Source: an uncultured Candidatus Altimarinota bacterium (GTDB lineage: Bacteria > Patescibacteriota > Gracilibacteria > CAIRYL01). Taken from it: DNA of 38,616 nucleotides. The position numbers and the translations under genes are program-made. Positions 11-38,507 of this stretch are shown here, piece after piece (position 1 is the stretch's first letter; the number at the start of each line of letters is the position of its first letter). Below the pieces are notes generated by a model. That model was not told the DNA's origin. It worked only from the letters and a program-made list of their open reading frames with translations, and did not search any database. The stretch is taken from the NCBI GenBank assembly GCA_947311645.1, contig CAMZKZ010000041.1:1-38616 (forward strand). The letters run 5' to 3'.

Positions 11-87
11 GGGTGATTAGCTCAGTTGGCTAGAGCATCTGGTTTACACCCAGGAGGTCGGGAGTTCGAATCTCTCATCACCCACCA
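11..87 (+). tRNA. tRNA-Val, anticodon TAC, with encoded 3' CCA
   Basis: Cloverleaf folded by hand. Acceptor GGGTGAT/ATCACCC, D arm GCTC..GAGC, anticodon stem TCTGG/CCAGG with loop TTTACAC (anticodon TAC), T arm GGGAG-TTCGAAT-CTCTC, discriminator A, then CCA. Confidence 0.9.
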
Positions 88-7961: not shown

Positions 7962-7987
7962 GTTTTTTAAAAGTATAAATTGTATAA

Positions 7988-9310
7988 CTATTTTCTTCTT
8001 ACAACAACTGCATGTTTATGTGCATCAAGACCTTCTTCTTCTGCCATAATTTCTATAGTATCTCCTAAATTTTCAATTCCTTGTGCTGAAATATGCTGAA
8101 AGGTTATCCATTTCCCAAAACTTTCCACCGATACTCCCGAAAAACTTCGAGCAAATCCACTGGTTGGTAAGGTATGATTTGTTCCACTCGCATAATCTCC
8201 TGCTGATTCTGGAGTAAATTCTCCACAAAATACCGATCCTGCATTTATAATTTCTGGAAGTAATTTTTTCCATTCAGCAACATGTAAAATTAAATGCTCT
8301 GGTGCGTATTCATTTGAAATTTGAATAGCTTCTTCTCGTGTTTCACATACCACAATAAAACTTGATTGTAATGCTTGTATTGCGACTTCATTTCGTCCCA
8401 ATTGTGCAAGTTGTTTTTCTATTTCTTGCAATGTTTCTTGTGCAACAATTTCTGAAGTAGTAACTAACACCGCTTGCGAATCTGTTCCGTGCTCTGCCTG
8501 TGAAAGTAAGTCTGATGCAATGAATTCTGGATTTCCTGTTTCATCTGATAATACTAAAACTTCACTTGGTCCTGCTGGCATATCAATTGCTGTATGCCCT
8601 GAAATTTTCATTTTTGCAGCAGTAACAAAAGAGTTTCCTGGTCCAAAAATTTTATCAACTTTTGGAATTGTTTCTGTTCCGTGTGCCATTGCGAAAATTG
8701 CTTGCGACCCACCAACTTTATAAATTTCTGAAACACCTGCAATATGTGCTGTTGCTAAAATTGCAGGATGCACTGTTCCATCTTTTTGCGGAGGTGTGCA
8801 TAAAACAATTTTTTTACACCCAGCTATTTGAGCAGGAATTGCCAGCATCAATAGTGTTGAAAAAAGTGGTGCTGTCCCTCCAGGAATATATAATCCCACT
8901 TTTTCGATTGCACGAAATTCTTGCCAACATTCTACTCCTGCAGTTGTTTGCACTGTTTCACTTTTTGTTCGCTTTTGTGCGGTATGAAACAGTGTAATAT
9001 TTTCATGTGCTTTTTGTATTGCTTCTATAAGTTCTGGTTTTTCCATTTCTATAGACGCAACCGCTGTAGAAATTTCTTCTGGAGATACCGAAAAATTATT
9101 GAGCCGTACTCCATCAAATTTTTCTGTTAATGCTTTTAATTCTCCATCTCCATTTTTCAAAATATTGTTTTCTATTTCTGAAACAATTTCAAAAACTTTA
9201 CCGTAATCAATTCCAGATCGTTTGCACAAATCTTGTAATGTGAATGTATTTGTAAACTTTTGAAAAGTTGGATTTGCAAAGTTTTCCGATATATTTTGTA
9301 TATATTTCAT
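7988..9310 (-). CDS. hisD: Histidinol dehydrogenase
   Basis: 440 aa with the signature PAGPSEVLVL...SQAEHGTDSQAVLVT and YAPEHLIL. Confidence 0.9.
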   Translation of the reverse strand: MKYIQNISENFANPTFQKFTNTFTLQDLCKRSGIDYGKVFEIVSEIENNILKNGDGELKALTEKFDGVRLNNFSVSPEEISTAVASIEMEKPELIEAIQKAHENITLFHTAQKRTKSETVQTTAGVECWQEFRAIEKVGLYIPGGTAPLFSTLLMLAIPAQIAGCKKIVLCTPPQKDGTVHPAILATAHIAGVSEIYKVGGSQAIFAMAHGTETIPKVDKIFGPGNSFVTAAKMKISGHTAIDMPAGPSEVLVLSDETGNPEFIASDLLSQAEHGTDSQAVLVTTSEIVAQETLQEIEKQLAQLGRNEVAIQALQSSFIVVCETREEAIQISNEYAPEHLILHVAEWKKLLPEIINAGSVFCGEFTPESAGDYASGTNHTLPTSGFARSFSGVSVESFGKWITFQHISAQGIENLGDTIEIMAEEEGLDAHKHAVVVRRK

Positions 9311-9350
9311 ATTTTCTGGTTAAATAATAATTTTTGAGCGTTTGAATTTT

Positions 9351-10478
9351 CTAAAGCGTTTTTAAAAGAGTGATAAGTGCAAAGTTTTCTTCTGGTGTTC
9401 CCACAGAAATTCGCAAACAGTTTTCTAAAAATTGTTTCTTTCCAAAATTTCGTACAACAATTCCTTTATTTTTCAATTTTTCATATATAATATCCGCATC
9501 AAATTCTGGAGAAATTCGTACTAAAATTGAATTTGCATACGAAGGGTATACATTTGCAAACAATGGATTTTCTCCAGTTGTATAGTTTTTACATTCTTCT
9601 TGCAAATAGTGCAGTTGTGCAACTAAAACATTTCTTTGTTGATACACTTTTTCTTTATTGTTTAATGCATTATTTACTGCATTTGCTGTTAATATATTCA
9701 CATTATACGGTGCTTTTACTGCCTGAACCATCGCAATTACATCTTTATGTGCAAACATTTTTCCGCATCGTACTCCAGCCAATCCCCACATTTTAGAAAA
9801 TGTTTGCAATACAATCAGTTTTGGATATTTTTCCAAAAATTTAAGCGCTGAATGCTTTGAAACAAAATCTATATATGCTTCATCTACCACAACCATTCCA
9901 GAAAAATTATCTAATATTTTTATTAATTGCTTCTCTGCAATAATATTTCCCGTTGGATTATTTGGGTGACACAAAAAGAGAAGTTTGATATTATTTTTAT
10001 TTTCTTCTGTCGCTTCGGTATTATCCGCAAGTAAAATTTTTGAAACAACTTCATCTGTCATTTCAAAGCTCGTAGCATCAAGTGAAATATCAAGCACATT
10101 TACATTATTTACGCCAGCACTCACTGCATACATTCCAAATGTTGGAGACGAAATACAAATAGAATCTTTGCTTGGTTCGCAAAAAATTCGTACCAATAAA
10201 TCGATAAGCTCATCGCTTCCATTTCCTAAAATTAAATTTTCTTTTGTAAGACTACATGAAAACTGACTAATTGTTGCTTCCACAATTTTTTCTCGTAATT
10301 CATCGTGCATCACTTCTGGATACCTATTTTTCCCGTTATTTTCAAATGGATTTTCGTTTGCATCTAAAAATGTATATGTTTGTCCATTATTCACAAATTC
10401 GTCTCGTGCAGAAGAATATGGAGAAAACTTTTCTAAATGTTTTCGAAACGGAAACCGTGTTGTTATTTCTGTAGACAT
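9351..10478 (-). CDS. hisC: Histidinol-phosphate aminotransferase (class II PLP aminotransferase)
   Basis: 375 aa with LDANENP, NPNNPTGN and the PLP-lysine motif TFSKMWGLAGVRCG. It sits in a cluster with hisD and hisB. Confidence 0.85.
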   Translation of the reverse strand: MSTEITTRFPFRKHLEKFSPYSSARDEFVNNGQTYTFLDANENPFENNGKNRYPEVMHDELREKIVEATISQFSCSLTKENLILGNGSDELIDLLVRIFCEPSKDSICISSPTFGMYAVSAGVNNVNVLDISLDATSFEMTDEVVSKILLADNTEATEENKNNIKLLFLCHPNNPTGNIIAEKQLIKILDNFSGMVVVDEAYIDFVSKHSALKFLEKYPKLIVLQTFSKMWGLAGVRCGKMFAHKDVIAMVQAVKAPYNVNILTANAVNNALNNKEKVYQQRNVLVAQLHYLQEECKNYTTGENPLFANVYPSYANSILVRISPEFDADIIYEKLKNKGIVVRNFGKKQFLENCLRISVGTPEENFALITLLKTL

Positions 10479-10756
10479 AATTTATTAAGTAAAATATTGT
10501 ATCCTCCTTCTCCCATTTGATTTTTCCATTGATTTACTCGTGAAACAGTAGTTGCAGAAAGCCCTGTTTTTTCTGCAGTTTTCCGCACAGAATCTCCTCC
10601 ATTTAAAAGCTTTGCAGCTTTCCATCGTTTTGACATTTCTGTAAGTTCGGAAATTGTACACAAATCTCTAAAAAATAAAGAAAATTCTTCTGGTGTTTCC
10701 AAATGGCTTATATCAGAAAAAAGCTCTGATAATTCTGTTGTTTTCCATTTATGCAT
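10463..10756 (-). CDS. TrpR-like YerC/YecD family DNA-binding protein
   Basis: 97 aa. The FFRDLCTISELTEMSKRWKAAKLL...RKTAEKTGLSATTVSRVNQW pattern matches Trp-repressor-like HTH proteins. Its 3' end overlaps the hisC start by 16 nt. Confidence 0.7.
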   Translation of the reverse strand: MHKWKTTELSELFSDISHLETPEEFSLFFRDLCTISELTEMSKRWKAAKLLNGGDSVRKTAEKTGLSATTVSRVNQWKNQMGEGGYNILLNKLCLQK

Positions 10757-18517: not shown

Positions 18518-19963
18518 TTATACAAACTCTCTTTGTATTACATCAAAAAATTCACTTGGAATTTTATCAAAATTATTATTTTCAGTATCAATTTTTGTAA
18601 GCTCTTGCGCATTACATAATACTTCATACTCTTCAAACCCATCACTTGAATATGTTGTAATGTATTCTTGTAATAAAAATGGAAAATCTTCAATAGAGTC
18701 TACTTCATACTCGTATAAACTCATTCGCAATGCTAAATTTATTTCAGAATATGTTCCCACGCATTCAAAAGGCTTCACTCGCGATTCATCAACTAAGTCA
18801 TGAAACATTTCTTTCATTTCTGTATTTTCGAAGAGATCTTGTCCAAAAATTTTCTTCATATTCTCTTTTCCAACAAATGGAAATAAAATAATATATGCAA
18901 ATAAACATTTTGGACACGCATTACACCATATATCTTTTTTACTTCCCGCATTACAGCTCTTAAAAATTGGGTAATTTTCTGGAAACTCTGCAAATATTTT
19001 TGCAATTTGAATTTCTGATAATGGTCGTAAAAAACTCATATATTCCATGTACGGATGAATATATTTATTGATAAATGTTCTAAAATCATCTTCAAATTGC
19101 AAACTTTTTGAAAATTGATGATTTACTTTAAGACCTTCAAATACAACATTTTCTTCATTTGCACTTGATTCATTTGAAAGAAAAATATATTTCTTTTTAT
19201 AAAGCAATGATGTAAGTACTGTAATAAATCCAAGCAATGCAGAAAACGGAACATGTCCATTTAAAAATCCATTTGCATTACATTCTATAATTTTTTTATC
19301 TAAAATTCGCTGAACCGCAATATTTCCAATTTTTTCATCAGATTCTTCTGCTTTTACAAATAATCGCTTTGTTGCTTCAATTGGATTTACCGCAAACAGA
19401 GTAATATTTTCCGAGAAATCTTTCTTGAGTAATTCATAACTTACAATCGAATCTTTTCCTCCTCCAATCGGAAGGAGTATTTCTTCAGAAAGCAAAATAT
19501 TTGAAAGCGGTGCAAATTTTGATTCTTTTTTTTCTAATTTTTCATCTTTCCCATAGCTAAATTGAAAAAAATCATCTTGTGAAACAGCTATTTTATTCAC
19601 ATACATAAACTCACCCAATCCATTATAAAACAAATTTTTAAACCAATTTTCTTGATATTTATCTAAAAACCCAGTATGTATTTCAATAATTTTAGCACAA
19701 GAAATTTTCCAATAATTTACCATTTCTGCAACTCCTAAATAAAAAATTGCAGCAGAAAAATCCTCTGCAGGAAGTGTTTCTGTAGTAATTTTGGGAAGAG
19801 AGATAGTATGTGTAAATTCTAAATTTTCACAGTCTTCATTACTCGTATCTGCATGAATTGTATAACAATAAGAAATACAAAGAAGGGTATCGGATTCTAT
19901 AACTTTAATTTCATCAAATGAAAATTTAGTATATTTTTTTCGTAAATCTTTAAATTTTTCCAT
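18518..19963 (-). CDS. PP-loop (adenine nucleotide alpha-hydrolase-like) protein; candidate MurL-type glycopeptidyl-glutamate epimerase
   Basis: 481 aa with the PP-loop-like LLPIGGGKDSIV and a Cys cluster CNAGSKKDIWCNACPKC. It lies 13 nt upstream of the murD-like ATG. The functional call is inferred from gene context. Confidence 0.4.
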   Translation of the reverse strand: MEKFKDLRKKYTKFSFDEIKVIESDTLLCISYCYTIHADTSNEDCENLEFTHTISLPKITTETLPAEDFSAAIFYLGVAEMVNYWKISCAKIIEIHTGFLDKYQENWFKNLFYNGLGEFMYVNKIAVSQDDFFQFSYGKDEKLEKKESKFAPLSNILLSEEILLPIGGGKDSIVSYELLKKDFSENITLFAVNPIEATKRLFVKAEESDEKIGNIAVQRILDKKIIECNANGFLNGHVPFSALLGFITVLTSLLYKKKYIFLSNESSANEENVVFEGLKVNHQFSKSLQFEDDFRTFINKYIHPYMEYMSFLRPLSEIQIAKIFAEFPENYPIFKSCNAGSKKDIWCNACPKCLFAYIILFPFVGKENMKKIFGQDLFENTEMKEMFHDLVDESRVKPFECVGTYSEINLALRMSLYEYEVDSIEDFPFLLQEYITTYSSDGFEEYEVLCNAQELTKIDTENNNFDKIPSEFFDVIQREFV

Positions 19964-19984: not shown

Positions 19985-21034
19985 TTATCGAAACACTTGA
20001 TTCATTCTGTCTGGAGACTCTAATAAAAAGTCTGCTAAGGTCATAGCAACCATACTTTCTAATACTGGAACCAATCGCGGAGGAATTGTTGGATCATGTC
20101 GTCCACCAATAACAAAATCAGAAATTTCTCCATTTGGAGTGTTTGCTTTTTGCTTTTGTGAAATAGAAGGAGTAGGTTTTACAGATACTGTAATAATAAT
20201 ATCATCTCCCGTTGTTAATCCTCCAGAAATCCCCTCTTTTCGTTTATTTTGCATAGATCCAACCTGATGCTTTGCCTTGCTTCCAATACCATATTCAAAA
20301 CTTCTCACAGCACCACACGACATAATTCCTCTCGCTAATTCTCCTTCGATTTTTCCAAAAACAGGAGTTCCTAAATATTTTGCACAATTTTTAATACAAA
20401 TAGTAATTTCTCCTCCAACACTTTCACTTTTTCTTTTTGCGTCTATTACAGCCTCTATCATTTTTTCCGCAGCTTTTTTATCTCCACAACGCACTGGGTT
20501 TTTTTCTATTTCAGCAGTATCAAAATCGGCATGAGAAATATCACAACTGTCTACTCCTGCTAAACTTGAAACATGGGCAATAATTTGTGTTGCATTATTC
20601 TCTGCAAGAATTTTCTTTGCAAATGTACCACCAATAACTCGTGCCAATGTTTCTCGTCCAGAACTTCTTCCTCCTCCTCGATGATCCCTATGTTCATATT
20701 TATAAAACCACCCCTCATCTGCATGACCTGGTCGAAATACTTCTTTTAAAAAATCGTAATCTTTTGATGCTTGATTTTGATTTCTCACAATACATGCAAT
20801 TGGTGTTCCTATTGTTTTTCCTTCAAATATTCCTGATAAAATTTCTACTTGGTCTTTTTCTATTCTTGGTGTTGCCATTGCACTTTGCCCTGGTTTTCTT
20901 CTGTTTAATTCTGCTTGAATTTCTTCAGTCGATATTTCAAGACCTGCAGGACACCCATCAATAACAGCTCCAAGTGCTACACCATGACTTTCTCCAAAAG
21001 TAGTAACTCTAAAATTTCTTCCAAATGTATTCAT
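19985..21034 (-). CDS. aroC: Chorismate synthase
   Basis: MNTFGRNFRVTTFGESHG at the N-terminus, plus RPGHAD and GGRSSGRET motifs. 349 aa. Confidence 0.95.
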   Translation of the reverse strand: MNTFGRNFRVTTFGESHGVALGAVIDGCPAGLEISTEEIQAELNRRKPGQSAMATPRIEKDQVEILSGIFEGKTIGTPIACIVRNQNQASKDYDFLKEVFRPGHADEGWFYKYEHRDHRGGGRSSGRETLARVIGGTFAKKILAENNATQIIAHVSSLAGVDSCDISHADFDTAEIEKNPVRCGDKKAAEKMIEAVIDAKRKSESVGGEITICIKNCAKYLGTPVFGKIEGELARGIMSCGAVRSFEYGIGSKAKHQVGSMQNKRKEGISGGLTTGDDIIITVSVKPTPSISQKQKANTPNGEISDFVIGGRHDPTIPPRLVPVLESMVAMTLADFLLESPDRMNQVFR

Positions 21035-23330: not shown

Positions 23331-26300
23331 TTATTTTTTAATTTGTTTTTTTTCACACTTTGTATTTATCATTTCAGCAAGAATTGAAGCACCAATTATT
23401 AAACTCGTTCCCCACATAAGGTGTGAAGTTATTTTAATCTCTCCTAAGATAAATGATTCAACAAAAATAGTAATTAAAATTGCAATGTTGAACATGAGAA
23501 ATGCTATAAACCCATCCATTCGTTTATATGCCTCAAATGTTAATAATGTCCCAAGTCCCCATAATGCCCCCAATCCTACAGCCCAAAAAATAGAAATAAA
23601 TGGTAATTCTATAAAATACGAATACGAATAAAGAACCAATGGTAATGAACACAGAAAGGAAATAAAGTATAAATAAAAGTTTAAGAAATAGGCCTCATTA
23701 CCTCTAAACTTTTTTGTATATTGAATTTGTGCAGTTACAAAAATAACATCGGCAAACATATAACAAATAGCATAAATATTTCCCATTAATGAATTAGCTG
23801 ATCCAGAAACAAGATCTTTATAAAAAATTAAAGATGCTCCAACTCCCCCCAAAAGAAATATAATAAACATTTTTATAATATTCCCCCTTTCGTTAAAATA
23901 TGAAGTTGTCGATTTCCAAAATATAAAACCGATGAGAAGTGCAAGAATAGGAGCAAAACCATTTAATAAAATAAAGCTTGTTCCAGAAGTAGATTGTGAG
24001 CTTAAAATTAAAAATAAAATCAAAGAAAGCATAGAGAGCATCATTGCTATAAAATACCAATCTATTTTTAATTTATAATTTTTTTGTATTGCCTTTTTTC
24101 CTAAAAATAATACAGAAAGAAAGGTGAAAATACTCGCACCAAGTAATAATAAAGGAGCTTGTAAGTCGAATCGAATATCAGAAAGGGGGCTATATCGAAT
24201 AATTAAAGGCTCTATCCCCCAAATAATGACTGCACCAATACGCAGAAAATACCCTATTATTTTTTCTTTTTGTTTTTTTTGATACTCAGAGAGCGTAATA
24301 GAGGGGGTCTTGTTATTTGCTATCTTTTTTTGTGATACAAATATTGCTGGTAATCCCATAGAAAAAACAAGTAAAATAAGAGGAAAGTAAAAATTTAGAT
24401 TATAAATATCATAATTATGCTGAAAGAATATATAAATATACCCCAACGATACAATAAAATTTATTGCAATAATAGAAAGTAATACAGATATTTTATTGCG
24501 AATAGCAGCAAAATAATTATTTAAAAATATATATGTTGAAACATTTGCCGCAAGAATAAACCCCGCACCAAAATAAAATAAAAAATGATTTTCTGATAGG
24601 CCAGAGATAAGCAATGTAAAAATCAATACGGAAATTCCTATTGGAAAAGCCAGAAAAAAAGCTATTTTCAGTAAAAATGAAATGGAAGTCGCATATGAAC
24701 ACATGAGTGAAGGTTTAATATTTTGTACAAATGTAATAATATTTTTTTTAGAACTTTCAACAAGCATGCTTCCTTTTATTTCCTTCCTTTCTTTTTTCAT
24801 TGTAAGATTTTTAATATCCACAGATGTCTTTTCTGCAACTGCTAATACAACAGATTCTACATCTGAAAATAATGAAAACGATGAAGAAAAATGTAATTTT
24901 TGTTTTTTTACACTCTGTTTTTTTTTGGTATGCGATTTATTTTTTATATATTCTTCGTATAAATATAAGCATTCATATTCCCCTATTCTGCCTTCATAAA
25001 TTCGCACATACAACTCTTCAATAGAAGAACAATTCACATCTGTAGACCGTAAAAAATCAATAGTATCACAGAGTGTATCTGTCGAACCCATTCTTTTTTC
25101 ATCAAAAACAGCTTGAAGAATATTATGCCCTTTTTCTAACTTTTCATCATACGAAACACAAGAGAGCATTTCTGAAATTTTCTCCTTATACAGAAGAGAG
25201 GAATTCAACCAAGGTCGTTTCAATTGAGTCGTATTTGAAAATGAAAACTCAATAATATCATTATTTTTTACAATAGTATCCAATGGTTTTTCATGAGTAT
25301 TTATACGCACTGTACTAATATTTTGAAAACGATCTGGATACAATAATATACCTGCATCGAGTGCTGTAGCCCCTCTTGCAATATAATTCTTTCCATATTC
25401 TGGATTATGAATCGTTAACTGAGGAGTTAAAAGATTATTTGTAATAGAATCAAGTGTTTGCTCAGATTCTTTATGTAAAAGAGACAAGGATCTATTTGAT
25501 AATTCTTCAAGCTTATACTCTTTATTATAAACATCTATAAATGCTCCAATCGTATTTCGTTCATACATTTTTTTCGATACAATATGAACTTCAATAATTT
25601 CTGAGTTATTCAAAATATACTGTGCATGCAATGCTTGATATTTATTTATCTTTGGACGAGAAATATAATCGAGAAAAGTATATTTTTTTAAATAAAGTTG
25701 TGTATTTAAACGAGAAAATGCCATGAAACAGTCTTTTTCATCTTCTAATTCTAGAATTAAATATTTATCTCTTTTTTTTCGATTCATAAAACTATTGTAT
25801 TCGAAAAAAATATGAGCATCTGGAAAAAATGATGAAAGAGTTGTAATACAAGACATCTGAGAATCCTCATTTATATCACTATTATCTATAGGAATATGTA
25901 ATGCTCTTGCACATGCATTTTCTAAAAGATTTTTCAGACTCCATATACCAAGGCGTTTTGCCGATGCGACATATATAAATATTGCCTCTTGTACTTTTTT
26001 CTTTCTTTTTTGTGCATTTTTTTTCCCTGCGATTGTTATAATATTATGCAGTCTATCAAATATTTTAATAAGCAAAATACGACAATCTTGTTTTGCATAA
26101 TGAAATATTTTTTCAATAGTTTTTTTTGTACGTTCTTCTTTTGTGTGCTTTTTTAAAATTTCATCACCAGGAGCACAATCTATATCCGAGACTTTACTTA
26201 CTCCTTCTATCAAGGTATATACGGTTTCTCCAAATATTTTTTTCACCTTTTCTGAAATTTTTTTGCGTGCCAATACTGGTAAAACACCTTCTTCTTCATA

Positions 26301-26660
26301 ATCCTCTATTGTATCGTGTAAAAGAGTTGCAGATAAAAAATCTACACATGGTTTATAAGGAAGAGAAAGCAATGCAACAATTAACGGGTGTGTTATAAAC
26401 GCCGCACCAGACTCTCTTCTTTGTTTTTTGTGTACCTCTTTTGCAAATAAAAAAGCATTCTCGAGTTGTTTTTTAGCACTTATACTCGAATTGTAGTGAG
26501 AAAATAAAAAGATTAAATTTTGAAAAAGAAACTCTTCCCCTTTTGATTCTAGTACCTCAATAGCATCAAAATTTTCATGTGTAGAAAAAAAATCAACACT
26601 ATAGTATTGATTTTTCATATTTTCTGTTATTACATCTGTAGTATTTTCTAAATTTTTCAT
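23331..26660 (-). CDS. Long RelA/SpoT homologue (intact HD hydrolase, degenerate synthetase, TGS) fused to a C-terminal polytopic membrane region with an EamA/DMT-like module
   Basis: - HD domain, about nt 26031-26453: ITHPLIVA, TLLHDTIED, FDRLHNI.
- Synthetase-like region, about nt 25521-25823: YQALHA and EVHIVSKKMYE, in place of the usual YQSLHT and EVQIRT..MH..AE.
- TGS, about nt 25245-25427: GATALDAG...NNDIIEF.
- About 14-15 hydrophobic helices across nt 23361-24698. The last ~10 are EamA-like (RIGAVIIWGIEPLIIRY). Confidence 0.8.
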   Translation of the reverse strand: MKNLENTTDVITENMKNQYYSVDFFSTHENFDAIEVLESKGEEFLFQNLIFLFSHYNSSISAKKQLENAFLFAKEVHKKQRRESGAAFITHPLIVALLSLPYKPCVDFLSATLLHDTIEDYEEEGVLPVLARKKISEKVKKIFGETVYTLIEGVSKVSDIDCAPGDEILKKHTKEERTKKTIEKIFHYAKQDCRILLIKIFDRLHNIITIAGKKNAQKRKKKVQEAIFIYVASAKRLGIWSLKNLLENACARALHIPIDNSDINEDSQMSCITTLSSFFPDAHIFFEYNSFMNRKKRDKYLILELEDEKDCFMAFSRLNTQLYLKKYTFLDYISRPKINKYQALHAQYILNNSEIIEVHIVSKKMYERNTIGAFIDVYNKEYKLEELSNRSLSLLHKESEQTLDSITNNLLTPQLTIHNPEYGKNYIARGATALDAGILLYPDRFQNISTVRINTHEKPLDTIVKNNDIIEFSFSNTTQLKRPWLNSSLLYKEKISEMLSCVSYDEKLEKGHNILQAVFDEKRMGSTDTLCDTIDFLRSTDVNCSSIEELYVRIYEGRIGEYECLYLYEEYIKNKSHTKKKQSVKKQKLHFSSSFSLFSDVESVVLAVAEKTSVDIKNLTMKKERKEIKGSMLVESSKKNIITFVQNIKPSLMCSYATSISFLLKIAFFLAFPIGISVLIFTLLISGLSENHFLFYFGAGFILAANVSTYIFLNNYFAAIRNKISVLLSIIAINFIVSLGYIYIFFQHNYDIYNLNFYFPLILLVFSMGLPAIFVSQKKIANNKTPSITLSEYQKKQKEKIIGYFLRIGAVIIWGIEPLIIRYSPLSDIRFDLQAPLLLLGASIFTFLSVLFLGKKAIQKNYKLKIDWYFIAMMLSMLSLILFLILSSQSTSGTSFILLNGFAPILALLIGFIFWKSTTSYFNERGNIIKMFIIFLLGGVGASLIFYKDLVSGSANSLMGNIYAICYMFADVIFVTAQIQYTKKFRGNEAYFLNFYLYFISFLCSLPLVLYSYSYFIELPFISIFWAVGLGALWGLGTLLTFEAYKRMDGFIAFLMFNIAILITIFVESFILGEIKITSHLMWGTSLIIGASILAEMINTKCEKKQIKK

Positions 26661-26826: not shown

Positions 26827-27807
26827 ATGAATACTATACGAATTGGAATGTTTGGCTTTGGAACAGTTGGATCTAATATTGCGAAAATTCTTTTTCATCA
26901 TAGAAAAGAAATAGAGAAAAAATTTCCTCATACCAATATTACTGTTAAATATATCGCAGTACGAAATAAAGTATCGAGCATAGAAAAAGCAAAACATGCA
27001 GGTATAGAAATAAGTGAAGATATTTTTACAGAAAATCATAATGATATTTGGAATGACCCAGAAATCAATTGTATTATAGAGGTTATTGGAGGCACAGGAC
27101 TTGCTAAAGATATTATTTATAAAGCAATAGAAACAAAACGAAATATAATAACCGCAAATAAAGCTGTTTTAGCTGAATCAGGAAATGAAATCTTTTCACT
27201 CGCAAAAGAAAATAATGTAAAAATTGGATACGAAGCATCTGTTGCAGGAGGAATTCCAATCATTAAAACACTTAAAAATCATTTTGCAATTGGGAGTGTT
27301 ACACGAATCGAAGGGATTTTAAACGGAACATGCAATTACATGCTTTCAAATTTAGAAAATAATCCCCTTCTTTCCTATGCAGATGTTTTACACGATGCAC
27401 AAGAAAAAGGTTTTGCAGAAAGTAACCCATCGGCAGATGTTGATGGATGGGATACCGCAGCCAAAATCTCAATTCTCTCAAGTATTTGCTTCTCACAAAA
27501 GATTCCAAAAACAACGGATTTTCCAGTGGAAGGAATTGCAAATATTACTGCTAAAAAAATTGCAGATGCACAAAAAGATAAGAAGAAGATACGACTTATA
27601 GCGAGTGCAACACAGCAGAACACTAGTATCGATATTCGAGTAGAGCCAGAAGAAATATCTCAAAATTCTCCATTTTATTCGGTGAATGGTGCAGATAATA
27701 TGATAATTATTCATCACGAATATTTAGGACAAATTGTCTTAAAAGGTGCAGGTGCAGGTGGTGAAGCCACCGCAATGTCAATTATTTCAGATATTCTAGA
27801 ATTATAA
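26827..27807 (+). CDS. hom: Homoserine dehydrogenase (no C-terminal ACT domain)
   Basis: IGMFGFGTVGSNI, ANKAVLA, YEASVAGGIPII and GILNGTCNYMLS. 326 aa. Confidence 0.9.
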   Translation: MNTIRIGMFGFGTVGSNIAKILFHHRKEIEKKFPHTNITVKYIAVRNKVSSIEKAKHAGIEISEDIFTENHNDIWNDPEINCIIEVIGGTGLAKDIIYKAIETKRNIITANKAVLAESGNEIFSLAKENNVKIGYEASVAGGIPIIKTLKNHFAIGSVTRIEGILNGTCNYMLSNLENNPLLSYADVLHDAQEKGFAESNPSADVDGWDTAAKISILSSICFSQKIPKTTDFPVEGIANITAKKIADAQKDKKKIRLIASATQQNTSIDIRVEPEEISQNSPFYSVNGADNMIIIHHEYLGQIVLKGAGAGGEATAMSIISDILEL

Positions 27808-27824
27808 TTTTTTATATACATACT

Positions 27825-29198
27825 ATGTTTTCATTAAAATTTGGAGGAACTTCTATGGGGTCAGCAGAGGCAATTGCACAAACAGCACAAATTATTATTT
27901 CTCATCCAGAACAGCATAAATCAGTAGTTGTTTCAGCAATGAGCGGAGTAACAAATTTGCTTATTTCTGCGGCAGAATGTGCAACAAAAACCGATAAAAT
28001 TTGTTATAAAAATTATTTAGAAGAAATAAAAGAAAAACATATTACGGCACTTGATACATTAGTTACAAATAAAGATTTGCATACAGAAGGGAAAGAATTT
28101 ATAGAAAAAAAACTATTAGGACTTTCTGGTTTTTTACATGCACTCACTGTTATCGGAGAAGTTTCATCGCGTTCAAATGACGAAATTATCTCTCTTGGAG
28201 AAATTTTATCTGCAAAACTTTTATCACTGCATTTAAAAGATATAAATGAAAAAGTAGAATTTATTTCTTTAGAAAATATTGTTTCTGATATGTTTGAACA
28301 CGAACATATAAAACCTGATAAACATTTTTTTGAATGTTTTTCTCATAAACTTGGAAAATTACTTACCCCTCTTCTTGAAGAAAATATAACCCCTATCTGT
28401 ACTGGATTTTTTGGAAAAATTCCTGATGGTATTGTGAATGCGGTAGGACGAGGATACTCTGATTTTACGGCTGCATTAGTTGGAAAAGCATGCAATGCAA
28501 CAGAAATTCAAATTTGGACAGATGTAAGTGGAATCTTATCAACAGATCCTCGAATCGTAAAAGAAGCACATGTAATAGATGAATTATCGTTTAATGAAGC
28601 AACAGAACTTGCAAATTTAGGAGCAAAAGTTATTCATCCTCAAACAATTTGGCCTGCGGTAAAAAATAATATTGTAGTACGAATTAAAAATACAATGGCT
28701 CCAAACGATATGGGAACTGCTATTACAAAACTTGGAAAAAATTCTAACCATTCGTTTAAGTCTATAACTGTTCAAAAAGATATAACAGTGCTTACTGTAA
28801 AATCATCAAATATGAGTGAGTCAGGAATTTTAATAGACCTATTTCAAGCGTTTGCATCATATGATATTTCTATAGATTTAGTTTCAACTTCAGAATCAAG
28901 TATTTCTGTAACAATTCAAAATGGGCATAAAAATTTATCGAAATTGGTAACAGAACTGGAAAAAAAATATAATGTAGAAATTGTACATAATAAATCTATT
29001 ATTGCAATTGTAGGAAATGAAATGTTATACAATATGGGAGTTGCTGGTCGATTTTTTTCTGCACTTTCCAACGCAAAAATCAATATAAATATGATTTCAC
29101 AAGGTGCAAATGAATCAAATATTTCTGCTGTAATTGCTGGGAAAGATGCAAATAATGCTGTGAAAGTTGTACATAAGGAGTTTTTTAATACAATATAA
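27825..29198 (+). CDS. lysC: Aspartate kinase
   Basis: KFGGTSMGS at the N-terminus, VGRGYSDFTAA, and C-terminal tandem ACT-like region (IIAIVGNEM...GVAGRFFSAL). Confidence 0.9.
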   Translation: MFSLKFGGTSMGSAEAIAQTAQIIISHPEQHKSVVVSAMSGVTNLLISAAECATKTDKICYKNYLEEIKEKHITALDTLVTNKDLHTEGKEFIEKKLLGLSGFLHALTVIGEVSSRSNDEIISLGEILSAKLLSLHLKDINEKVEFISLENIVSDMFEHEHIKPDKHFFECFSHKLGKLLTPLLEENITPICTGFFGKIPDGIVNAVGRGYSDFTAALVGKACNATEIQIWTDVSGILSTDPRIVKEAHVIDELSFNEATELANLGAKVIHPQTIWPAVKNNIVVRIKNTMAPNDMGTAITKLGKNSNHSFKSITVQKDITVLTVKSSNMSESGILIDLFQAFASYDISIDLVSTSESSISVTIQNGHKNLSKLVTELEKKYNVEIVHNKSIIAIVGNEMLYNMGVAGRFFSALSNAKININMISQGANESNISAVIAGKDANNAVKVVHKEFFNTI

Positions 29199-35265: not shown

Positions 35266-35301
35266 ATGCATAAAATTTTTATAAAAAATAACTTAACATT
35301 T

Positions 35302-35832
35302 ATGACCGAACCTACTCCATATAACCACTTACAGGTTGAAAAAAAATGGCAAACATTTTGGGAAACAAACAAAATATTTTCTACAGAAAATACTGCATCA
35401 TATTCAAAAAACACAAAAACTTTTTATGCACTCGATATGTTCCCCTTTCCATCGGGAGCAGGGTTACATGTTGGACACCCAGAAGGGTATACAGCAACCG
35501 ATATTATTTGCCGAAAAAAACGAATGCAAGGATACAAAGTTTTACATCCTATGGGATGGGATGCCTTTGGATTACCTGCCGAAAATTTTGCTATTAAAAC
35601 AGGTGTTCATCCGAAAATTTCTACAGCAAAAAATATTGAAAACTTTACACGGCAAATTAAAAGTCTTGGATTCTCATATGACTGGGAAAGAGAATTTTCT
35701 ACAACAGATGAAGAGTATTACAAACATACACAAAATTTATTTTTACAATTATATAAAAAAAATTTATTATACGAAGATGATAAACCATTAAACTGGTGTG
35801 CTTCGTGTAAAGTAGTGTGTGCAAATGAATAA
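35302..35832 (+). CDS. leuS: Leucyl-tRNA synthetase, N-terminal part, ending at an in-frame TAA
   Basis: [25 protein letters not shown] motif [27 protein letters not shown] and [12 protein letters not shown]. The frame is the same as the downstream ORF. An alternative ATG lies at 35266. Confidence 0.85.
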
Positions 35833-35895
35833 GTAGAACAAGGGTTACATGAACGATGTGGAAATACTGTAACAAAAAAAGCACTTAAACAATGG

Positions 35896-38448
35896 ATGTT
35901 TAAAATTACAGATTATGCAGAACGATTATTGCAAGATTTAGAAACACCAAATGTTATTATTTTACATGGATTAGGAGGAAATGGAGAAAGCGGATGGGGT
36001 GCGGATATGCAAAAATATTTTACAGAAAACTCTATACAATCTATTGCACCAACTTTTCCGAATTCATCAAACCCAGAATATTCTGAATGGAAACAGTTTT
36101 TTGAAGAAAATATTCTTGAACGCATAACGCCTCAAACCATTATTTTTGCTCATAGTTTAGGAGGTGGATTTTTACAAAAATATTTATCTGAAGAAAATGT
36201 AAAAGTTAAATTTTCGGAACTTGTTTTCGTTGCACCAACTATTGGAGATTGTGGAATTGCAGAAATATCAAATTTCTTTACAAAAGAATTTAATTACCAA
36301 AAAATCGCTGCATCTGTAGAAAATATTTTTATATATGCAGGTGGAAACGATCCATATATTACAACAGAAGAATTTACATTTTTAGCAGAAAAACTTTCTG
36401 CTCAGCTTATTCTAAATGAAAATCAAGAACATTTTTGGGGAGATTGGAAACTAGAACAATTACCAGAACTGAAAGAAAAATGCACTAAAACTATTGCATC
36501 TGTTTTAGATTGGCCAGAAAAAATTAAAGCCATGCAACGAAACTGGATTGGAAAAAGCACTGGTGCAGAAATAGATTTTCAAGTAGAAAATAGTGATGAA
36601 AAAATTCGAGTATATACAACTCGTCCAGATACACTTTTTGGAGCGACATATTTTGTACTTTCTCCAGAACACCCACTCGTAGAAAAAATTACAACACCAG
36701 AACAAAACAATGAAATTGCACAATATAAAGTTACGTGTGCACAAAAATCAGAACTTGAGCGAACAGAACTTAATAAAAATAAAACAGGAGTATTTACAGG
36801 AAGCTATGTTATAAACCCCGTAAATAACAAAAAAATTCCTATTTGGATTGCAGATTATGTAATGATGGGATACGGAACTGGTGCTATTATGTCTGTTCCT
36901 GCACATGATGAAAGAGATAAAGAATTTGCAGAAAAATATAATTTAGAAATTCTTGAAGTTATAGATGGACTCGAAAATCCATTTCAAAAAACAGGTGGAA
37001 TAGTAAAAAATTCTGATTTCTTAAACGGACTTTCTGTTGAAGAAGCAATTGAAAAAATGATTACATTTCTTGAAGAGAAAAAACTTGGAGAAAAAACAAT
37101 TAATTATAAACTTCGAGATTGGATTTTTACTCGACAACGATATTGGGGAGAACCTATCCCCCTTGTTTTTGATGAAAATGGAAAATCTTTTGCATTAGAT
37201 AATTCTCAATTACCTCTTATTCTTCCTGAAAGTGCGAATTATGAACCTTCTGAAACAGGAGAAAGTCCACTCTCAAAAATTACAGAATGGGTACATGTTT
37301 CTGGATATATTACAGATGAAAATACAGTAATTATCTGTAAAGAATCTGAAGTTCCAGAAAATAAACATTTCCAAAACTTTACACGAGAAACTTCTACAAT
37401 GCCAAACTGGGCTGGTTCAAGCTGGTATTGGTTGCGTTATATGGATTCTAAAAATTCTGATGAAGCATGGAGCCATAACGCAGAAAAACAATGGGGACCG
37501 GTAGATTTATATGTTGGTGGAGCTGAACATGCCGTTTTACATCTCTTATATGCACGATTTTGGCATAAAGCATTTTACGATTTAGGACTTGTTTCAACAA
37601 AAGAACCATTTAAAAAATTGGTAAATCAAGGACTTATTTTAAGTTATGCGTATCAACGAAAATCTGGAGGACTTGTTCCAAGTGATGAAATAGAAGAAAA
37701 AGATGGAAAATTCGTTGAAATTTCTACACAAGAACCAGTAGAAAAAATTGTAGCAAAAATGAGTAAATCACTTAAAAATGTTGTGAATCCAGACGATATA
37801 GTAGAAGCATATGGTGCCGATACATTACGAATGTATGAAATGTTTATGGGACCATTTGAGCAAAGTAAAGCGTGGGATACTACAGCACTTGAAGGAATGA
37901 ATAGATTTTTAATGAAAATTTGGAGATTATTTTCTGAAAAAGAAATTTCTGAACACTGTCCAAGCAAAGAGCTTATAAAGCTTACGCATCAAACAGTAAA
38001 AAAAGTTTCTGAAGATATTGATAATTTTAAATTTAATACAGCCATTTCTCAAATGATGATTTGGGTAAATGCATTTCAAAAATTAGACACTATTCCAAAA
38101 ATATCAGGAGGAAAATTTGTACGATTGCTTTCCCCTTTTGCTCCACATTTAGCAGAAGAACTTTGGCAAAAATTTGCTCCAGAAGATGAAACGATTAGTT
38201 TTCGATCGTGGCCAAGCTATAAAGAAGAATTATTAGTGGAAGATGAAGCGACATATGCAGTGCAAGTAAATGGAAAATTACGAGGAGATTTTACAATTGC
38301 AAAAGATGCATCGAAAGAAGAGTGTATTGCACAGGCAAAACAATTAGAGAGAGTAGCAAAATTTATTGCTGAAGCTGAAAATTCTGGAGGACAAATTCGT
38401 AAAGAAATTTTTGTTCCAGGAAAAATTGTTGGGTTTGTGGTGAAGTAA
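35896..38448 (+). CDS. leuS: Leucyl-tRNA synthetase, remainder (hydrolase-like insertion, CP1 editing domain, KMSKS, anticodon-binding and C-terminal domains)
   Basis: KITDYAERLL, MQRNWIGKS, the CP1 blocks TTRPDTLFGATYFVLSPEHP and GTGAIMSVPAHDERD, RQRYWGEPIP, and KMSKSLKN. It is in frame with 35302-35832. The 63 nt between them also encode LeuRS-like sequence. Confidence 0.9.
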   Translation: MFKITDYAERLLQDLETPNVIILHGLGGNGESGWGADMQKYFTENSIQSIAPTFPNSSNPEYSEWKQFFEENILERITPQTIIFAHSLGGGFLQKYLSEENVKVKFSELVFVAPTIGDCGIAEISNFFTKEFNYQKIAASVENIFIYAGGNDPYITTEEFTFLAEKLSAQLILNENQEHFWGDWKLEQLPELKEKCTKTIASVLDWPEKIKAMQRNWIGKSTGAEIDFQVENSDEKIRVYTTRPDTLFGATYFVLSPEHPLVEKITTPEQNNEIAQYKVTCAQKSELERTELNKNKTGVFTGSYVINPVNNKKIPIWIADYVMMGYGTGAIMSVPAHDERDKEFAEKYNLEILEVIDGLENPFQKTGGIVKNSDFLNGLSVEEAIEKMITFLEEKKLGEKTINYKLRDWIFTRQRYWGEPIPLVFDENGKSFALDNSQLPLILPESANYEPSETGESPLSKITEWVHVSGYITDENTVIICKESEVPENKHFQNFTRETSTMPNWAGSSWYWLRYMDSKNSDEAWSHNAEKQWGPVDLYVGGAEHAVLHLLYARFWHKAFYDLGLVSTKEPFKKLVNQGLILSYAYQRKSGGLVPSDEIEEKDGKFVEISTQEPVEKIVAKMSKSLKNVVNPDDIVEAYGADTLRMYEMFMGPFEQSKAWDTTALEGMNRFLMKIWRLFSEKEISEHCPSKELIKLTHQTVKKVSEDIDNFKFNTAISQMMIWVNAFQKLDTIPKISGGKFVRLLSPFAPHLAEELWQKFAPEDETISFRSWPSYKEELLVEDEATYAVQVNGKLRGDFTIAKDASKEECIAQAKQLERVAKFIAEAENSGGQIRKEIFVPGKIVGFVVK
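35947..36504 (+). other. Inserted alpha/beta serine-hydrolase-like domain (YdeN/RBBP9-like) within leuS
   Basis: VIILHGLGGNGESGW, nucleophile elbow AHSLGG (Ser at 36154-36156), GGNDPY (Asp at 36349-36351) and QEHF (His at 36430-36432). Canonical LeuRS has no counterpart at this position. Confidence 0.6.
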
Positions 38449-38470
38449 TCTATGAGGTAATAAACATGAA

Positions 38471-38507
38471 GAGAGAGAAAAATTTAAATTTTTCTCTCTC
38501 TTTTTTT
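38471..38507 (+). terminator. Rho-independent terminator after leuS
   Basis: A perfect 15-bp palindrome GAGAGAGAAAAATTT/AAATTTTTCTCTCTC (38471-38500) followed by a T7 run. Confidence 0.7.

What the first reader, a model, noticed from the sequence alone, without database searches (positions are those of the whole stretch)
35947..36504. Complete-looking alpha/beta serine hydrolase domain inserted inside leucyl-tRNA synthetase
**Insertion point.** In characterised bacterial LeuRS, the segment KIT.YA..LL.DL is followed after only a few residues by WP..VK.MQRNWIG.S, which leads into the CP1 editing domain. Here about 186 aa sit between KITDYAERLLQDLE and LDWPEKIKAMQRNWIGKS.

**What the insert looks like.** It reads as a small YdeN/RBBP9-type alpha/beta hydrolase with all expected catalytic elements in the right order and spacing:
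- beta1 plus oxyanion HG: VIILHGLGG
- nucleophile elbow: AHSLGG
- acid: GGNDPY
- His: QEHF

**Why it matters.** The normal CP1 editing motifs (TTRPDT, GTGAIMSVPAHDERD) are retained. The enzyme would therefore carry a second, unrelated hydrolytic site next to the hinge through which the tRNA CCA end shuttles. I do not know of a described LeuRS with this architecture. Possible roles are an extra aminoacyl-ester editing or proofreading activity, or an unrelated moonlighting esterase.
Basis: partly seen in the sequence, partly recalled or inferred. Interest (0 to 1): 0.8.

Follow-up and report, generated by a model that had tools for sequence, protein, structure and literature searches.

The report
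Serine hydrolase domain inside LeuRS
The leucyl-tRNA synthetase gene of an uncultivated Gracilibacteria/Peribacteria-type bacterium has a complete, apparently active small serine hydrolase domain inserted in its middle; dozens of relatives share this architecture, I found no paper describing it, and its role is unknown.

Summary
**Observation: confirmed.** Window 35947-36504 encodes 186 aa inserted in-frame between ...KITDYAERLLQDLE and LDWPEKIKAMQRNWIGKS of a bacterial-type leuS (35266-38448). This maps between G209 and L210 of T. thermophilus LeuRS.

**Identity of the insert.**
- It is a YdeN/RBBP9-family serine hydrolase: Pfam PF06821 E=1e-12, profile vs YdeN 1UXO E=3e-31, AF2 pLDDT 95.8, Foldseek TM 0.83.
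- Ser70/Asp135/His162 align with the RBBP9 triad and are invariant in 24 LeuRS-borne copies.
- dN/dS is 0.26, against 0.14 for the LeuRS flanks.

**Not an assembly artefact.** The same insertion occurs in about 30 LeuRS proteins and 9 GTDB MAGs of Candidatus Gracilibacteria/Peribacteria.

**Wider pattern.**
- The same family is also inserted at two other LeuRS sites and in ValRS.
- NUDIX and Ham1 domains occur in related LeuRS.
- The hydrolase is fused to NUDIX or Ham1 outside synthetases.
- CP1, HIGH and KMSKS motifs are retained.

**Best reading.** This is a tethered, independently acting aminoacyl/ester hydrolase ("house-cleaning" or auxiliary quality control). It is not a positioned partner of CP1. 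The function is inferred, not shown.

The window's leuS has one in-frame TAA (35830-35832) at an invariant Glu codon.

**Literature.** No description was found.

The parts
35266..35829 (+). leuS, N-terminal part: Rossmann fold first half with HIGH (HVGH, 35467-35478) and the start of ZN-1 ([11 protein letters not shown])
   Evidence: Pfam tRNA-synt_1 E=1.7e-25. About 86% aa identity to L001/P0001.
35830..35832 (+). In-frame TAA stop inside leuS, at a codon that is Glu (GAA/GAG) in all relatives (CANE-E-VEQG)
   Evidence: The codon alignment with L001 shows GAA TAA GTA against GAA GAA GTG. Conserved LeuRS sequence continues in frame after it.
35833..35946 (+). leuS continued in the same frame: rest of ZN-1 and the helix KQWMFKITDYAERLLQDLET. 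The table-11 ORF call restarts at ATG 35896.
35947..36504 (+). Inserted YdeN/RBBP9-family (PF06821) serine hydrolase domain, 186 aa. Oxyanion HG at 35965-35970, Ser70 at 36154-36156, Asp135 at 36349-36351, His162 at 36430-36432.
   Evidence: dN/dS 0.26 against L001.
36505..37071 (+). Beta-linker (LDWPEKIKAMQRNWIGKS) and CP1 editing domain with TTRPDT (36616-36633) and GTGAIMSVPAHDERD (36874-36918)
   Evidence: Pfam PF13603 E=1e-66 at residues 215-392 of the 850-aa ORF. Motifs. Alignment to 1h3n.
37072..38448 (+). Rest of leuS: second half of the catalytic domain with KMSKS (37756-37770), anticodon-binding and C-terminal domains, stop codon
   Evidence: NCBIfam TIGR00396 leuS_bact 728.5 bits against a cutoff of 548.4. 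Pfam Anticodon_1.
38468..38503 (.). Terminator-like long hairpin just after leuS
   Evidence: 16-pair stem followed by a T run; it matches on both strands.

Best explanation
**What it is.** A full-length, catalytically competent YdeN/RBBP9-family serine hydrolase domain has been inserted in-frame into a surface connection of a bacterial-type LeuRS. The site lies between the helix that follows ZN-1 and the first beta-strand of the CP1 linker. The fusion is inherited in a lineage of Candidatus Gracilibacteria/Peribacteria (CPR).

**What is shown.**
- The insertion is real.
- It has the alpha/beta-hydrolase fold.
- Its Ser70-Asp135-His162 triad and HG oxyanion motif are invariant.
- It is under purifying selection.
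- The LeuRS synthetic and CP1 editing motifs stay intact.

**What is inferred.**
- The domain works as an autonomous Ser-His-Asp hydrolase tethered to the synthetase. The most likely substrates are alpha-aminoacyl or other small esters/amides, as for RBBP9, which needs a free alpha-amine.
- The most likely role is 'house-cleaning' or auxiliary quality control, acting on diffusible aminoacyl by-products or released mischarged species.
- It is not a geometrically positioned second station for the tRNA CCA end, and it does not replace CP1.
For: **Identity and fold.**
- PF06821 E=1.2e-12.
- Profile against PDB: YdeN 1uxo E=3.3e-31, RBBP9 about 5e-21.
- AF2 model pLDDT 95.8, pTM 0.92.
- Foldseek: 1uxo TM 0.83, RBBP9 TM 0.79.

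**Catalytic competence.**
- H7, G8, H69, S70, L71, G72, D135 and H162 are invariant in 24 LeuRS-borne copies that fall to 28% identity.
- They occupy the same columns as RBBP9 S75/D138/H165.
- dN/dS is 0.26 for the insert against 0.14 for both flanks, with similar dS of 0.55-0.63.

**Real and inherited.**
- The same junctions occur in about 28 LeuRS proteins.
- They also occur in 9 of 11 GTDB loci, all from Gracilibacteria/Peribacteria MAGs of different studies.
- GC content is uniform across the junctions.

**Host enzyme intact.** HIGH, KMSKS, TTRPDT and GTG..HDxRD are retained in most insert-bearing LeuRS. A divergent CP1 occurs both with and without the insert.

**Loose rather than positional coupling.** The same family is inserted:
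- at the entry of the anticodon-binding domain (P0050, P0057, P0110, L010);
- inside or next to CP1 (P0222, L019);
- in ValRS (P0154, P0251, P0137).

In a rough NJ tree these copies fall in separate clades of the hydrolase domain.

**House-cleaning theme.**
- Related LeuRS also carry NUDIX or Ham1 inserts.
- Outside synthetases the same hydrolase is fused to Ham1, NUDIX, peptidase S51 or a second S33/S9-like hydrolase.

**Chemistry of the family.**
- RBBP9 is an aminopeptidase that requires a free alpha-amine, and its S75A mutant is inactive (PMC8866121).
- RBBP9 is also reported as a valacyclovir (L-valyl ester) activating enzyme (Shenoy et al. 2020, as cited in PMC7730578).
Against: - No biochemical data exist for this domain or for any bacterial member of the family.
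- Presence of the insert is patchy on the LeuRS tree. Close relatives at 76-81% identity lack it cleanly (P0005, P0009). It is therefore dispensable for LeuRS function and could be a tolerated passenger.
- RBBP9's alpha-amine anchor Glu108 has only an alignment-ambiguous counterpart (Glu106).
- The window's own gene carries an in-frame TAA, so its expression as one polypeptide is not guaranteed.
- The trees are neighbour-joining on short alignments.
- The link between the domain and synthetase chemistry rests on recurrence of fusions, not on an assay.
Confidence: 0.55

Rival explanations
1. **Extra editing site.** The hydrolase deacylates mischarged aa-tRNALeu, or hydrolyses non-cognate aa-AMP, as a second proofreading site. 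It would exploit its position at the ZN-1/CP1 hinge next to the path of the CCA end.
For: - Site 1 sits directly before the CP1 beta-linker.
- The hosts are the editing class Ia enzymes LeuRS and ValRS.
- RBBP9 acts on alpha-aminoacyl groups with a free amine and reportedly on an L-valyl ester of a nucleoside analogue. That is chemically close to an aminoacyl-ribose ester.
Against: - CP1 editing motifs are fully retained in most insert-bearing LeuRS, and a degenerate CP1 does not correlate with the insert.
- The same domain is also inserted about 70 residues after KMSKS, at the entry of the anticodon-binding domain, and at a different place in ValRS. No common geometry to the CCA end is conserved.
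- Close relatives do without the insert.
- No known aa-tRNA deacylase uses this fold (own knowledge).
Confidence: 0.15
2. **Tolerated passenger or selfish insertion.** LeuRS of this clade is a permissive landing pad for in-frame insertions. The hydrolase would be kept for a function unrelated to the synthetase (a Rosetta-stone-type fusion giving co-expression only), or would simply be carried along and spread by recombination between leuS alleles.
For: - Presence and absence are patchy on the LeuRS tree.
- Related LeuRS carry a recurring, Pfam-less element of about 145 aa at four or more different sites, including nested inside the hydrolase. They also carry other inserts.
- Free-standing copies exist in the same phyla in unrelated contexts, for example L007 between enolase and a murB-like gene.
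- P0010's insert is more similar to the window clade than its host body is.
Against: - The triad is invariant and dN/dS is 0.26, so the domain itself is functional.
- Among the best 150 hits to the domain, the long host proteins that carry it as an internal insertion are all LeuRS or ValRS. The other multidomain hits are end-to-end fusions to Ham1, NUDIX, peptidases or a methyltransferase.
- There appear to be at least four separate captures. Such recurrence is hard to get without selection for the association.
Confidence: 0.15
3. **Amino-acid supply.** The domain is an aminopeptidase or amino-acid-ester hydrolase that releases Leu (or Val in ValRS) from peptides or esters right next to the synthetic site.
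For: - RBBP9 is an aminopeptidase for hydrophobic N-terminal residues.
- Free relatives are fused to peptidase S51 or S33/S9-like hydrolases.
- The hosts are the branched-chain synthetases LeuRS and ValRS.
Against: - This window encodes several amino-acid biosynthesis enzymes, matching the His pathway, chorismate synthase, homoserine dehydrogenase and aspartokinase. Scavenging pressure is therefore not obvious.
- Fusions with NUDIX and Ham1 do not fit the idea.
- There is no channel or geometry evidence.
Confidence: 0.1
4. **Decaying gene.** The leuS copy in this window is a pseudogene inactivated by the TAA at 35830-35832, so the insert has no current function in this organism.
For: One in-frame TAA replaces an invariant Glu codon. 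No tRNA with a matching anticodon is present in the window.
Against: - It is a single lesion in 1,060 codons. All other motifs are intact, and dN/dS against L001 is 0.14-0.26.
- leuS is essential and normally single-copy (own knowledge).
- The other 29 or so large ORFs of the window are intact.
- A consensus error or minor variant (G to T) is a simpler explanation.
Confidence: 0.1
5. **Assembly chimera.** A free-standing hydrolase gene was joined into leuS by misassembly.
For: Nothing beyond the a priori possibility for a metagenomic contig.
Against: - The insert is in frame at both junctions, with no compositional step.
- Identical junctions occur in independent MAGs and metagenomes from NCBI, JGI, ENA and Logan.
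- dS of the insert equals that of the flanks against L001.
Confidence: 0.01

Closest known systems
B. subtilis YdeN (PDB 1UXO) and human RBBP9 (PDB 2QS9, 7OEX, 9FCR); Pfam PF06821 Ser_hydrolase
   Same: - Same lid-less alpha/beta-hydrolase fold of about 185 aa (Foldseek TM 0.83 and 0.79).
- Same HG, G-H-S-x-G, Asp and His positions.
- RBBP9 hydrolyses alpha-aminoacyl amides that carry a free amine.
   Different: - Those proteins are free-standing. Here the domain is an internal insertion in a synthetase.
- This subfamily has its own invariant residues: P38, P43, Y45, W48 and K49 in the motif PNxxNPxYxEWK.
- RBBP9's Glu108 and Tyr99 are not clearly conserved.
- No bacterial member has a known substrate.
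CP1 editing domain of class Ia synthetases (LeuRS/IleRS/ValRS; Pfam PF13603 for LeuRS)
   Same: It is also a hydrolytic domain inserted into the Rossmann fold of the synthetase. In this protein it lies directly downstream of the new insert.
   Different: CP1 has an unrelated fold, has no serine nucleophile, and is universal and ancient. The new domain is lineage-restricted, patchy and additional to an intact CP1.
IleRS with an inserted N-acetyltransferase domain (NCBIfam NF040702 'ileS_w_GNAT')
   Same: A precedent for a class Ia synthetase carrying an extra, unrelated small-enzyme domain. It is known to me here only from the model's name and description.
   Different: Different host, different inserted enzyme, and it is curated. 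No NCBIfam model covers a LeuRS or ValRS with a hydrolase.
Free-standing aa-tRNA trans-editing factors (AlaX, YbaK/ProXp, DTD) and aminoacyl-adenylate hydrolases (HINT); own knowledge
   Same: Possible functional analogy: hydrolysis of aminoacyl esters or anhydrides produced by synthetases.
   Different: Unrelated folds and no sequence match. The analogy is untested.
Split LeuRS of Aquifex aeolicus (alpha/beta subunits); own knowledge
   Same: As called, the window's leuS would give two polypeptides (188 aa and 850 aa).
   Different: The Aquifex split lies elsewhere, in the leucine-specific domain region, and is a genuine two-gene arrangement. Here a single TAA replaces a conserved Glu codon, and there is no obvious restart signal.

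Membership tests
Ser_hydrolase / YdeN-RBBP9 family (Pfam PF06821) | HMM score above the curated gathering cutoff over most of the profile | tested here: met
   48.6 bits against a cutoff of 22, E=1.2e-12, profile positions 1-166 of 172. Profile against YdeN: E=3.3e-31.
Ser_hydrolase / YdeN-RBBP9 family (Pfam PF06821) | Compact lid-less alpha/beta-hydrolase fold of about 180-190 aa | tested here: met
   AF2 pLDDT 95.8, pTM 0.92, alternating beta/alpha elements. The best Foldseek hits are 1uxo (TM 0.83) and RBBP9 (TM 0.79).
Ser_hydrolase / YdeN-RBBP9 family (Pfam PF06821) | Nucleophile elbow (small-x-Ser-x-small) with Ser in the column of RBBP9 Ser75 | tested here: met
   A-H-S70-L-G. The Ser is invariant in 24 of 24 LeuRS inserts and present in 120 of 122 free homologues.
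Ser_hydrolase / YdeN-RBBP9 family (Pfam PF06821) | Asp and His of the triad in the columns of RBBP9 Asp138 and His165; HG oxyanion motif after beta1 | tested here: met
   D135, H162 and H7-G8 are invariant. The column match is shown.
Ser_hydrolase / YdeN-RBBP9 family (Pfam PF06821) | Measured serine-hydrolase activity | not testable with these tools
   Needs an enzyme assay or activity-based probe.
Bacterial-type leucyl-tRNA synthetase (NCBIfam TIGR00396 leuS_bact) | HMM score above the curated cutoff | tested here: met
   728.5 bits against a cutoff of 548.4 for the 850-aa ORF alone. The N-terminal ORF hits tRNA-synt_1 at E=1.7e-25.
Bacterial-type leucyl-tRNA synthetase (NCBIfam TIGR00396 leuS_bact) | HIGH and KMSKS signature motifs | tested here: met
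   HVGH at 35467-35478 and KMSKS at 37756-37770.
Bacterial-type leucyl-tRNA synthetase (NCBIfam TIGR00396 leuS_bact) | CP1 editing domain after ZN-1, with the Thr-rich motif and GTG..HDxRD | tested here: met
   PF13603 E=1e-66. TTRPDT and GTGAIMSVPAHDERD are present.
Bacterial-type leucyl-tRNA synthetase (NCBIfam TIGR00396 leuS_bact) | One uninterrupted reading frame | tested here: not met
   TAA at 35830-35832 replaces an invariant Glu codon. Whether this is an error, a variant or a real lesion cannot be told without reads.
Inteins / Hint-domain elements | Hint-domain HMM match; Cys/Ser at the first residue; His-Asn at the end, followed by Cys/Ser/Thr | tested here: not met
   No Hint or intein family is among the Pfam hits. 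The insert starts P-N-V and ends A-S-V, followed by Leu.
Known aa-tRNA editing/deacylase families (CP1, AlaX/tRNA_SAD, YbaK, DTD) | Sequence or fold membership of the inserted domain | tested here: not met
   Only alpha/beta-hydrolase families are hit.

The most novel reading that the evidence does not exclude
In a CPR lineage, class Ia synthetases (LeuRS, ValRS) have repeatedly captured small 'sanitising' enzymes: YdeN/RBBP9-type aminoacyl hydrolase, NUDIX and Ham1. Together these would form a synthetase-embedded quality-control layer that is independent of CP1. In this reading the serine hydrolase removes aminoacyl groups from aberrant products of the synthetase. Candidate substrates are released mischarged aa-tRNA, aminoacyl esters or amides formed by leaked aa-AMP, and aminoacyl-adenylate-mimic inhibitors.
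Probability: 0.2. Interest if true: 0.85.

Novelty: new variant of a known kind. Interest (0 to 1): 0.62.

Why it matters
**For synthetase biology.** Synthetase domain accretion is well studied, and CP1 is the textbook case of an inserted hydrolytic domain. I found no description of a second, unrelated and apparently active hydrolase inserted next to the CP1 hinge, retained under purifying selection, and apparently captured independently at several sites of LeuRS and in ValRS. If the domain acts on aminoacyl species, it would be a new proofreading or damage-control layer in translation.

**For the hydrolase family.** It would also give the first functional handle on the bacterial YdeN family, whose substrates are unknown.

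**If the association is non-functional.** The clade would still be a natural experiment in how much in-frame domain insertion an essential enzyme tolerates. It includes an uncharacterised element of about 145 aa that looks mobile. That is relevant to protein engineering and to annotation of CPR genomes.

Tried and rejected
1. **Alternative genetic code as the explanation for the in-frame TAA: rejected.**
   - Thirty-one long ORFs tile the window under table 11, with stop usage TAA 24, TAG 6, TGA 1.
   - The TAA aligns to an invariant Glu, not Gln.
   - No suppressor tRNA is present in the window.
2. **Intein or Hint element: rejected**.
3. **Assembly chimera: rejected** by independent MAGs and equal dS.
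4. **Hydrolase as a replacement for a decayed CP1: rejected**.
5. **Word-indexed protein searches gave nothing.** Neither the insert alone nor the 145-aa element alignment returned any hit, not even the known carriers. I treat this as a limitation of that tool for domain-sized queries. The exhaustive phmmer search and the full-length query gave the data.
6. **Free-standing hydrolase next to an insert-less leuS.** I looked at P0009 in L012 and found none within 17 kb. This is uninformative.
7. **Checking the TAA in other samples.** An exact-pattern scan and a protein-guided scan of metagenome contigs found no near-identical copy.
8. **Full-length structure prediction was not run.** The tool returns no coordinates, so the triad-to-active-site geometry could not be measured. 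The second prediction job went to the 145-aa element instead.
9. **Literature.** Six searches found no description. The one hit on domain insertions (PMC13114784) concerns only CP1 itself.


Full report
**1. What is in the sequence**

- The + strand of 35266-38448 is a bacterial-type leuS. Translated straight through, it gives 1,060 codons with a single in-frame TAA at 35830-35832.
- The flanks are LeuRS. Against solved structures the alignment stops at T. thermophilus ...KDLEG209 and resumes at L210NWPEKVKAMQR. In E. coli it resumes at H231.
- Close relatives that lack the insert read ...QDLEDPT|LKWPKKIK, so the event is a clean insertion of about 184 aa with no loss of host residues.
- GC content is about 0.30 on both sides and inside the insert.

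**2. What the insert is**

- Pfam assigns it to PF06821 Ser_hydrolase: E=1.2e-12, 48.6 bits against a cutoff of 22, nearly full profile.
- A profile of 24 LeuRS-borne copies hits B. subtilis YdeN (1uxo) at E=3.3e-31 and human RBBP9 at about 5e-21.
- An AlphaFold2 model built on that alignment is very confident (pLDDT 95.8, pTM 0.92). Its best structural matches are YdeN (TM 0.83) and RBBP9 (TM 0.79).
- The following are invariant in all 24 copies, which diverge to 28% identity: H7-G8 (oxyanion), H69-S70-L71-G72 (nucleophile elbow), D135 and H162.
- S70, D135 and H162 sit in the same alignment columns as RBBP9 S75, D138 and H165. RBBP9 S75A is catalytically dead (PMC8866121).
- Against the closest genomic relative, L001 (Candidatus Gracilibacteria bacterium SZUA-1403), the insert has dN/dS 0.26 and the LeuRS flanks 0.14. 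dS is similar across the three segments (0.55-0.63). The insert therefore co-evolved with its host and is under purifying selection.
- I conclude that it is a real, folded and very probably active serine hydrolase domain.

**3. The host enzyme**

- HIGH, KMSKS, the CP1 Thr-rich motif TTRPDT and GTGAIMSVPAHDERD are all present.
- Across 79 related LeuRS the CP1 motifs are retained in most insert-bearing proteins. A clade with a divergent CP1 (STHFEAF in place of TTRPDT) contains members both with and without the insert. The hydrolase is therefore an addition to CP1, not a substitute for it.
- The TAA is the one defect.
  - It replaces a Glu that is invariant in all aligned relatives (CANE-E-VEQG). 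L001 has GAA GAA GTG where the window has GAA TAA GTA.
  - The window otherwise uses the standard code with intact long ORFs, and it contains no suppressor tRNA.
  - A consensus error or minor variant is the simplest explanation. A recent nonsense mutation cannot be excluded without reads.
  - I found no near-identical sequence elsewhere to compare.

**4. Distribution**

- A search with the full-length protein found many LeuRS that carry PF06821. These include P0001 and P0002 (84% and 82% identical, uninterrupted, 1,035 and 1,043 aa) and entries from NCBI, JGI, ENA and Logan. JGI names one 'leucyl-tRNA synthetase/predicted alpha/beta hydrolase family esterase'.
- About 28 of the best 120 hits have the domain at exactly this site.
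- A scan of one genome per GTDB species found 11 loci. All are in Candidatus Gracilibacteria or Candidatus Peribacteria MAGs, or in the dolphin-mouth bacterium DOLZORAL124_38_8.
  - Nine have the domain at this site of leuS.
  - One has it at another leuS site.
  - One is a free-standing gene between enolase and a murB-like gene.
- This rules out an assembly chimera.
- On a rough NJ tree of the LeuRS body, presence is patchy. P0005 (81% identical) and P0009 (76%) are sister to the window's clade and lack the insert, and there are several similar cases. Either precise loss is frequent or the cassette moves between leuS alleles by recombination through the very conserved flanks. I could not decide between these.

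**5. The wider pattern**

- An exhaustive phmmer search with the insert found 1,412 cluster representatives at E<=0.001. Most are free-standing proteins of about 180 aa, and the closest named ones are from Peregrinibacteria/Gracilibacteria.
- Every long protein (about 445 aa or more) among the best 150 hits is a class Ia synthetase.
- The hydrolase also occurs at other places:
  - at a second LeuRS site about 70 residues after KMSKS, at the entry of the anticodon-binding domain (P0050, P0057, P0110, L010);
  - inside or next to CP1 (P0222, L019);
  - in ValRS at one site near profile position 460 (P0154, P0251, P0137). JGI names one of these 'valyl-tRNA synthetase/predicted alpha/beta hydrolase family esterase'.
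- In a rough domain tree these groups are separate, which suggests at least four captures.
- Related LeuRS also carry NUDIX domains inside CP1 (P0131, P0213) and a Ham1-like domain at the window's site (P0222).
- Outside synthetases the same hydrolase family is fused to Ham1 (P0170), NUDIX (P0223), peptidase S51 (P0167) or a second S33/S9-like hydrolase (P0186, P0208).

**6. How it most likely works**

- Shown: an intact Ser-His-Asp alpha/beta-hydrolase module, selected for, tethered to an otherwise canonical LeuRS.
- Inferred:
  - The same module is tolerated at sites that are far apart on LeuRS, and in ValRS. CP1 is intact. A fixed geometric relation to the CCA-end path is therefore unlikely to be what is selected.
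  - The best-characterised relative, RBBP9, hydrolyses alpha-aminoacyl amides and requires a free alpha-amine. It is also reported to activate the L-valyl ester valacyclovir.
  - The recurrent company of NUDIX and Ham1, both classic 'house-cleaning' nucleotide hydrolases (own knowledge), points to a sanitising role.
- I therefore favour a tethered, autonomously acting aminoacyl/ester hydrolase that deals with diffusible aminoacyl by-products or released mischarged species.
- I hold this at moderate confidence (0.55 for the whole statement, about 0.95 for identity and reality of the domain, about 0.8 for catalytic competence).
- Rivals are cis or trans editing of mischarged tRNALeu (0.15), a functionally unrelated or selfish passenger (0.15), local amino-acid supply by aminopeptidase action (0.1), and decay of this particular gene copy (0.1, not exclusive).

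**7. Comparison with what is known, and novelty**

- The domain is a member of PF06821. All sequence and fold criteria were tested and met. Activity is untestable here.
- The host is a member of bacterial LeuRS, except that this copy's frame is interrupted.
- The insert is not an intein and not a member of any known editing-domain family.
- Six literature searches found no description of a LeuRS or ValRS with an alpha/beta-hydrolase insertion. NCBIfam has a curated model for an IleRS with a GNAT insertion but none for this architecture.
- The architecture is thus visible in databases but, as far as I could find, not studied. I rate it a new variant of a known kind (domain accretion in class I synthetases).

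**8. Limits**

- The trees are neighbour-joining on modest alignments.
- No reads were available.
- The literature library is incomplete.
- All functional statements are inference.

Noticed in passing
window 35830-35832: A single in-frame TAA lies inside leuS, at a codon that is Glu in every aligned relative (GAA in L001). It splits the gene call into 188-aa and 850-aa ORFs. It could be a sequencing error, a minor variant or a recent nonsense mutation; this is unresolved.
   Followed up: partly
relatives only: L009 858-5255 (three copies), L011, L002, L013; proteins P0004, P0008, P0011, P0012, P0016, P0017, P0020, P0023, P0024, P0043, P0072: - A recurring in-frame element of about 140-170 aa, with no Pfam match, sits at four or more different LeuRS sites, one of them nested inside the hydrolase insert.
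- Invariant residues are I39, H80, K84, R92 and Y141.
- The AF2 core has pLDDT above 90.
- Foldseek gives only weak, non-significant hits, led by BrnT/RelE/HigB-type RNase toxins.
- There are no intein signatures.
- It looks like a mobile protein-coding insertion. It is absent from the window.
   Followed up: partly
relatives only: P0131, P0213 (NUDIX inside CP1); P0222 (Ham1-like at the window's insertion site plus a hydrolase inside CP1): LeuRS of the same clade carry other small hydrolase domains as internal insertions. The same hydrolase family is fused to Ham1 (P0170) and NUDIX (P0223) outside synthetases.
   Followed up: partly
relatives only: P0154, P0251, P0137/P0271: Valyl-tRNA synthetases carry the same PF06821 domain, inserted near ValRS profile position 460. 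JGI names one of them as a ValRS/esterase fusion.
   Followed up: partly
relatives only: P0010, P0022, P0008, P0043, P0035: A LeuRS clade has a divergent start of CP1 (F-S-T/A-H-F-E-A-F in place of TTRPDT, and GTGAVFADAHDERD or GTGIVKCSCHDERD). This may mean altered or lost editing. It occurs both with and without the hydrolase insert.
   Followed up: no
relative P0010 against the window clade: P0010's hydrolase insert is 68% identical to the window's, but its LeuRS body groups with a different clade in the NJ tree. It could be a recombinant or chimeric leuS.
   Followed up: no
window 23331-26660 (-): A 1,109-aa ORF has only an N-terminal HD_4 domain recognised (residues 69-240). About 870 residues have no Pfam match.
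   Followed up: no
window 18518-19963 (-): A 481-aa ORF with no Pfam match lies between a Mur-ligase-like gene and chorismate synthase.
   Followed up: no
window 6858-10756, 19985-21034, 26827-29198: There are Pfam matches to amino-acid biosynthesis enzymes: imidazoleglycerol-phosphate dehydratase fused to a phosphatase, histidinol dehydrogenase, a class I/II aminotransferase, chorismate synthase, homoserine dehydrogenase and an aspartokinase-like kinase. A Trp-repressor-like gene is also present. This is more biosynthetic capacity than is usually expected of CPR-type genomes.
   Followed up: no
window 38468-38503: A perfect 16-pair A/G-rich hairpin (GAAGAGAGAGAAAAATTTAAATTTTTCTCTCTCTTT) flanked by T runs lies right after leuS. 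It scores as a terminator on both strands.
   Followed up: no
window 11-87: tRNA-Val (anticodon TAC) at the very start of the window.
   Followed up: no
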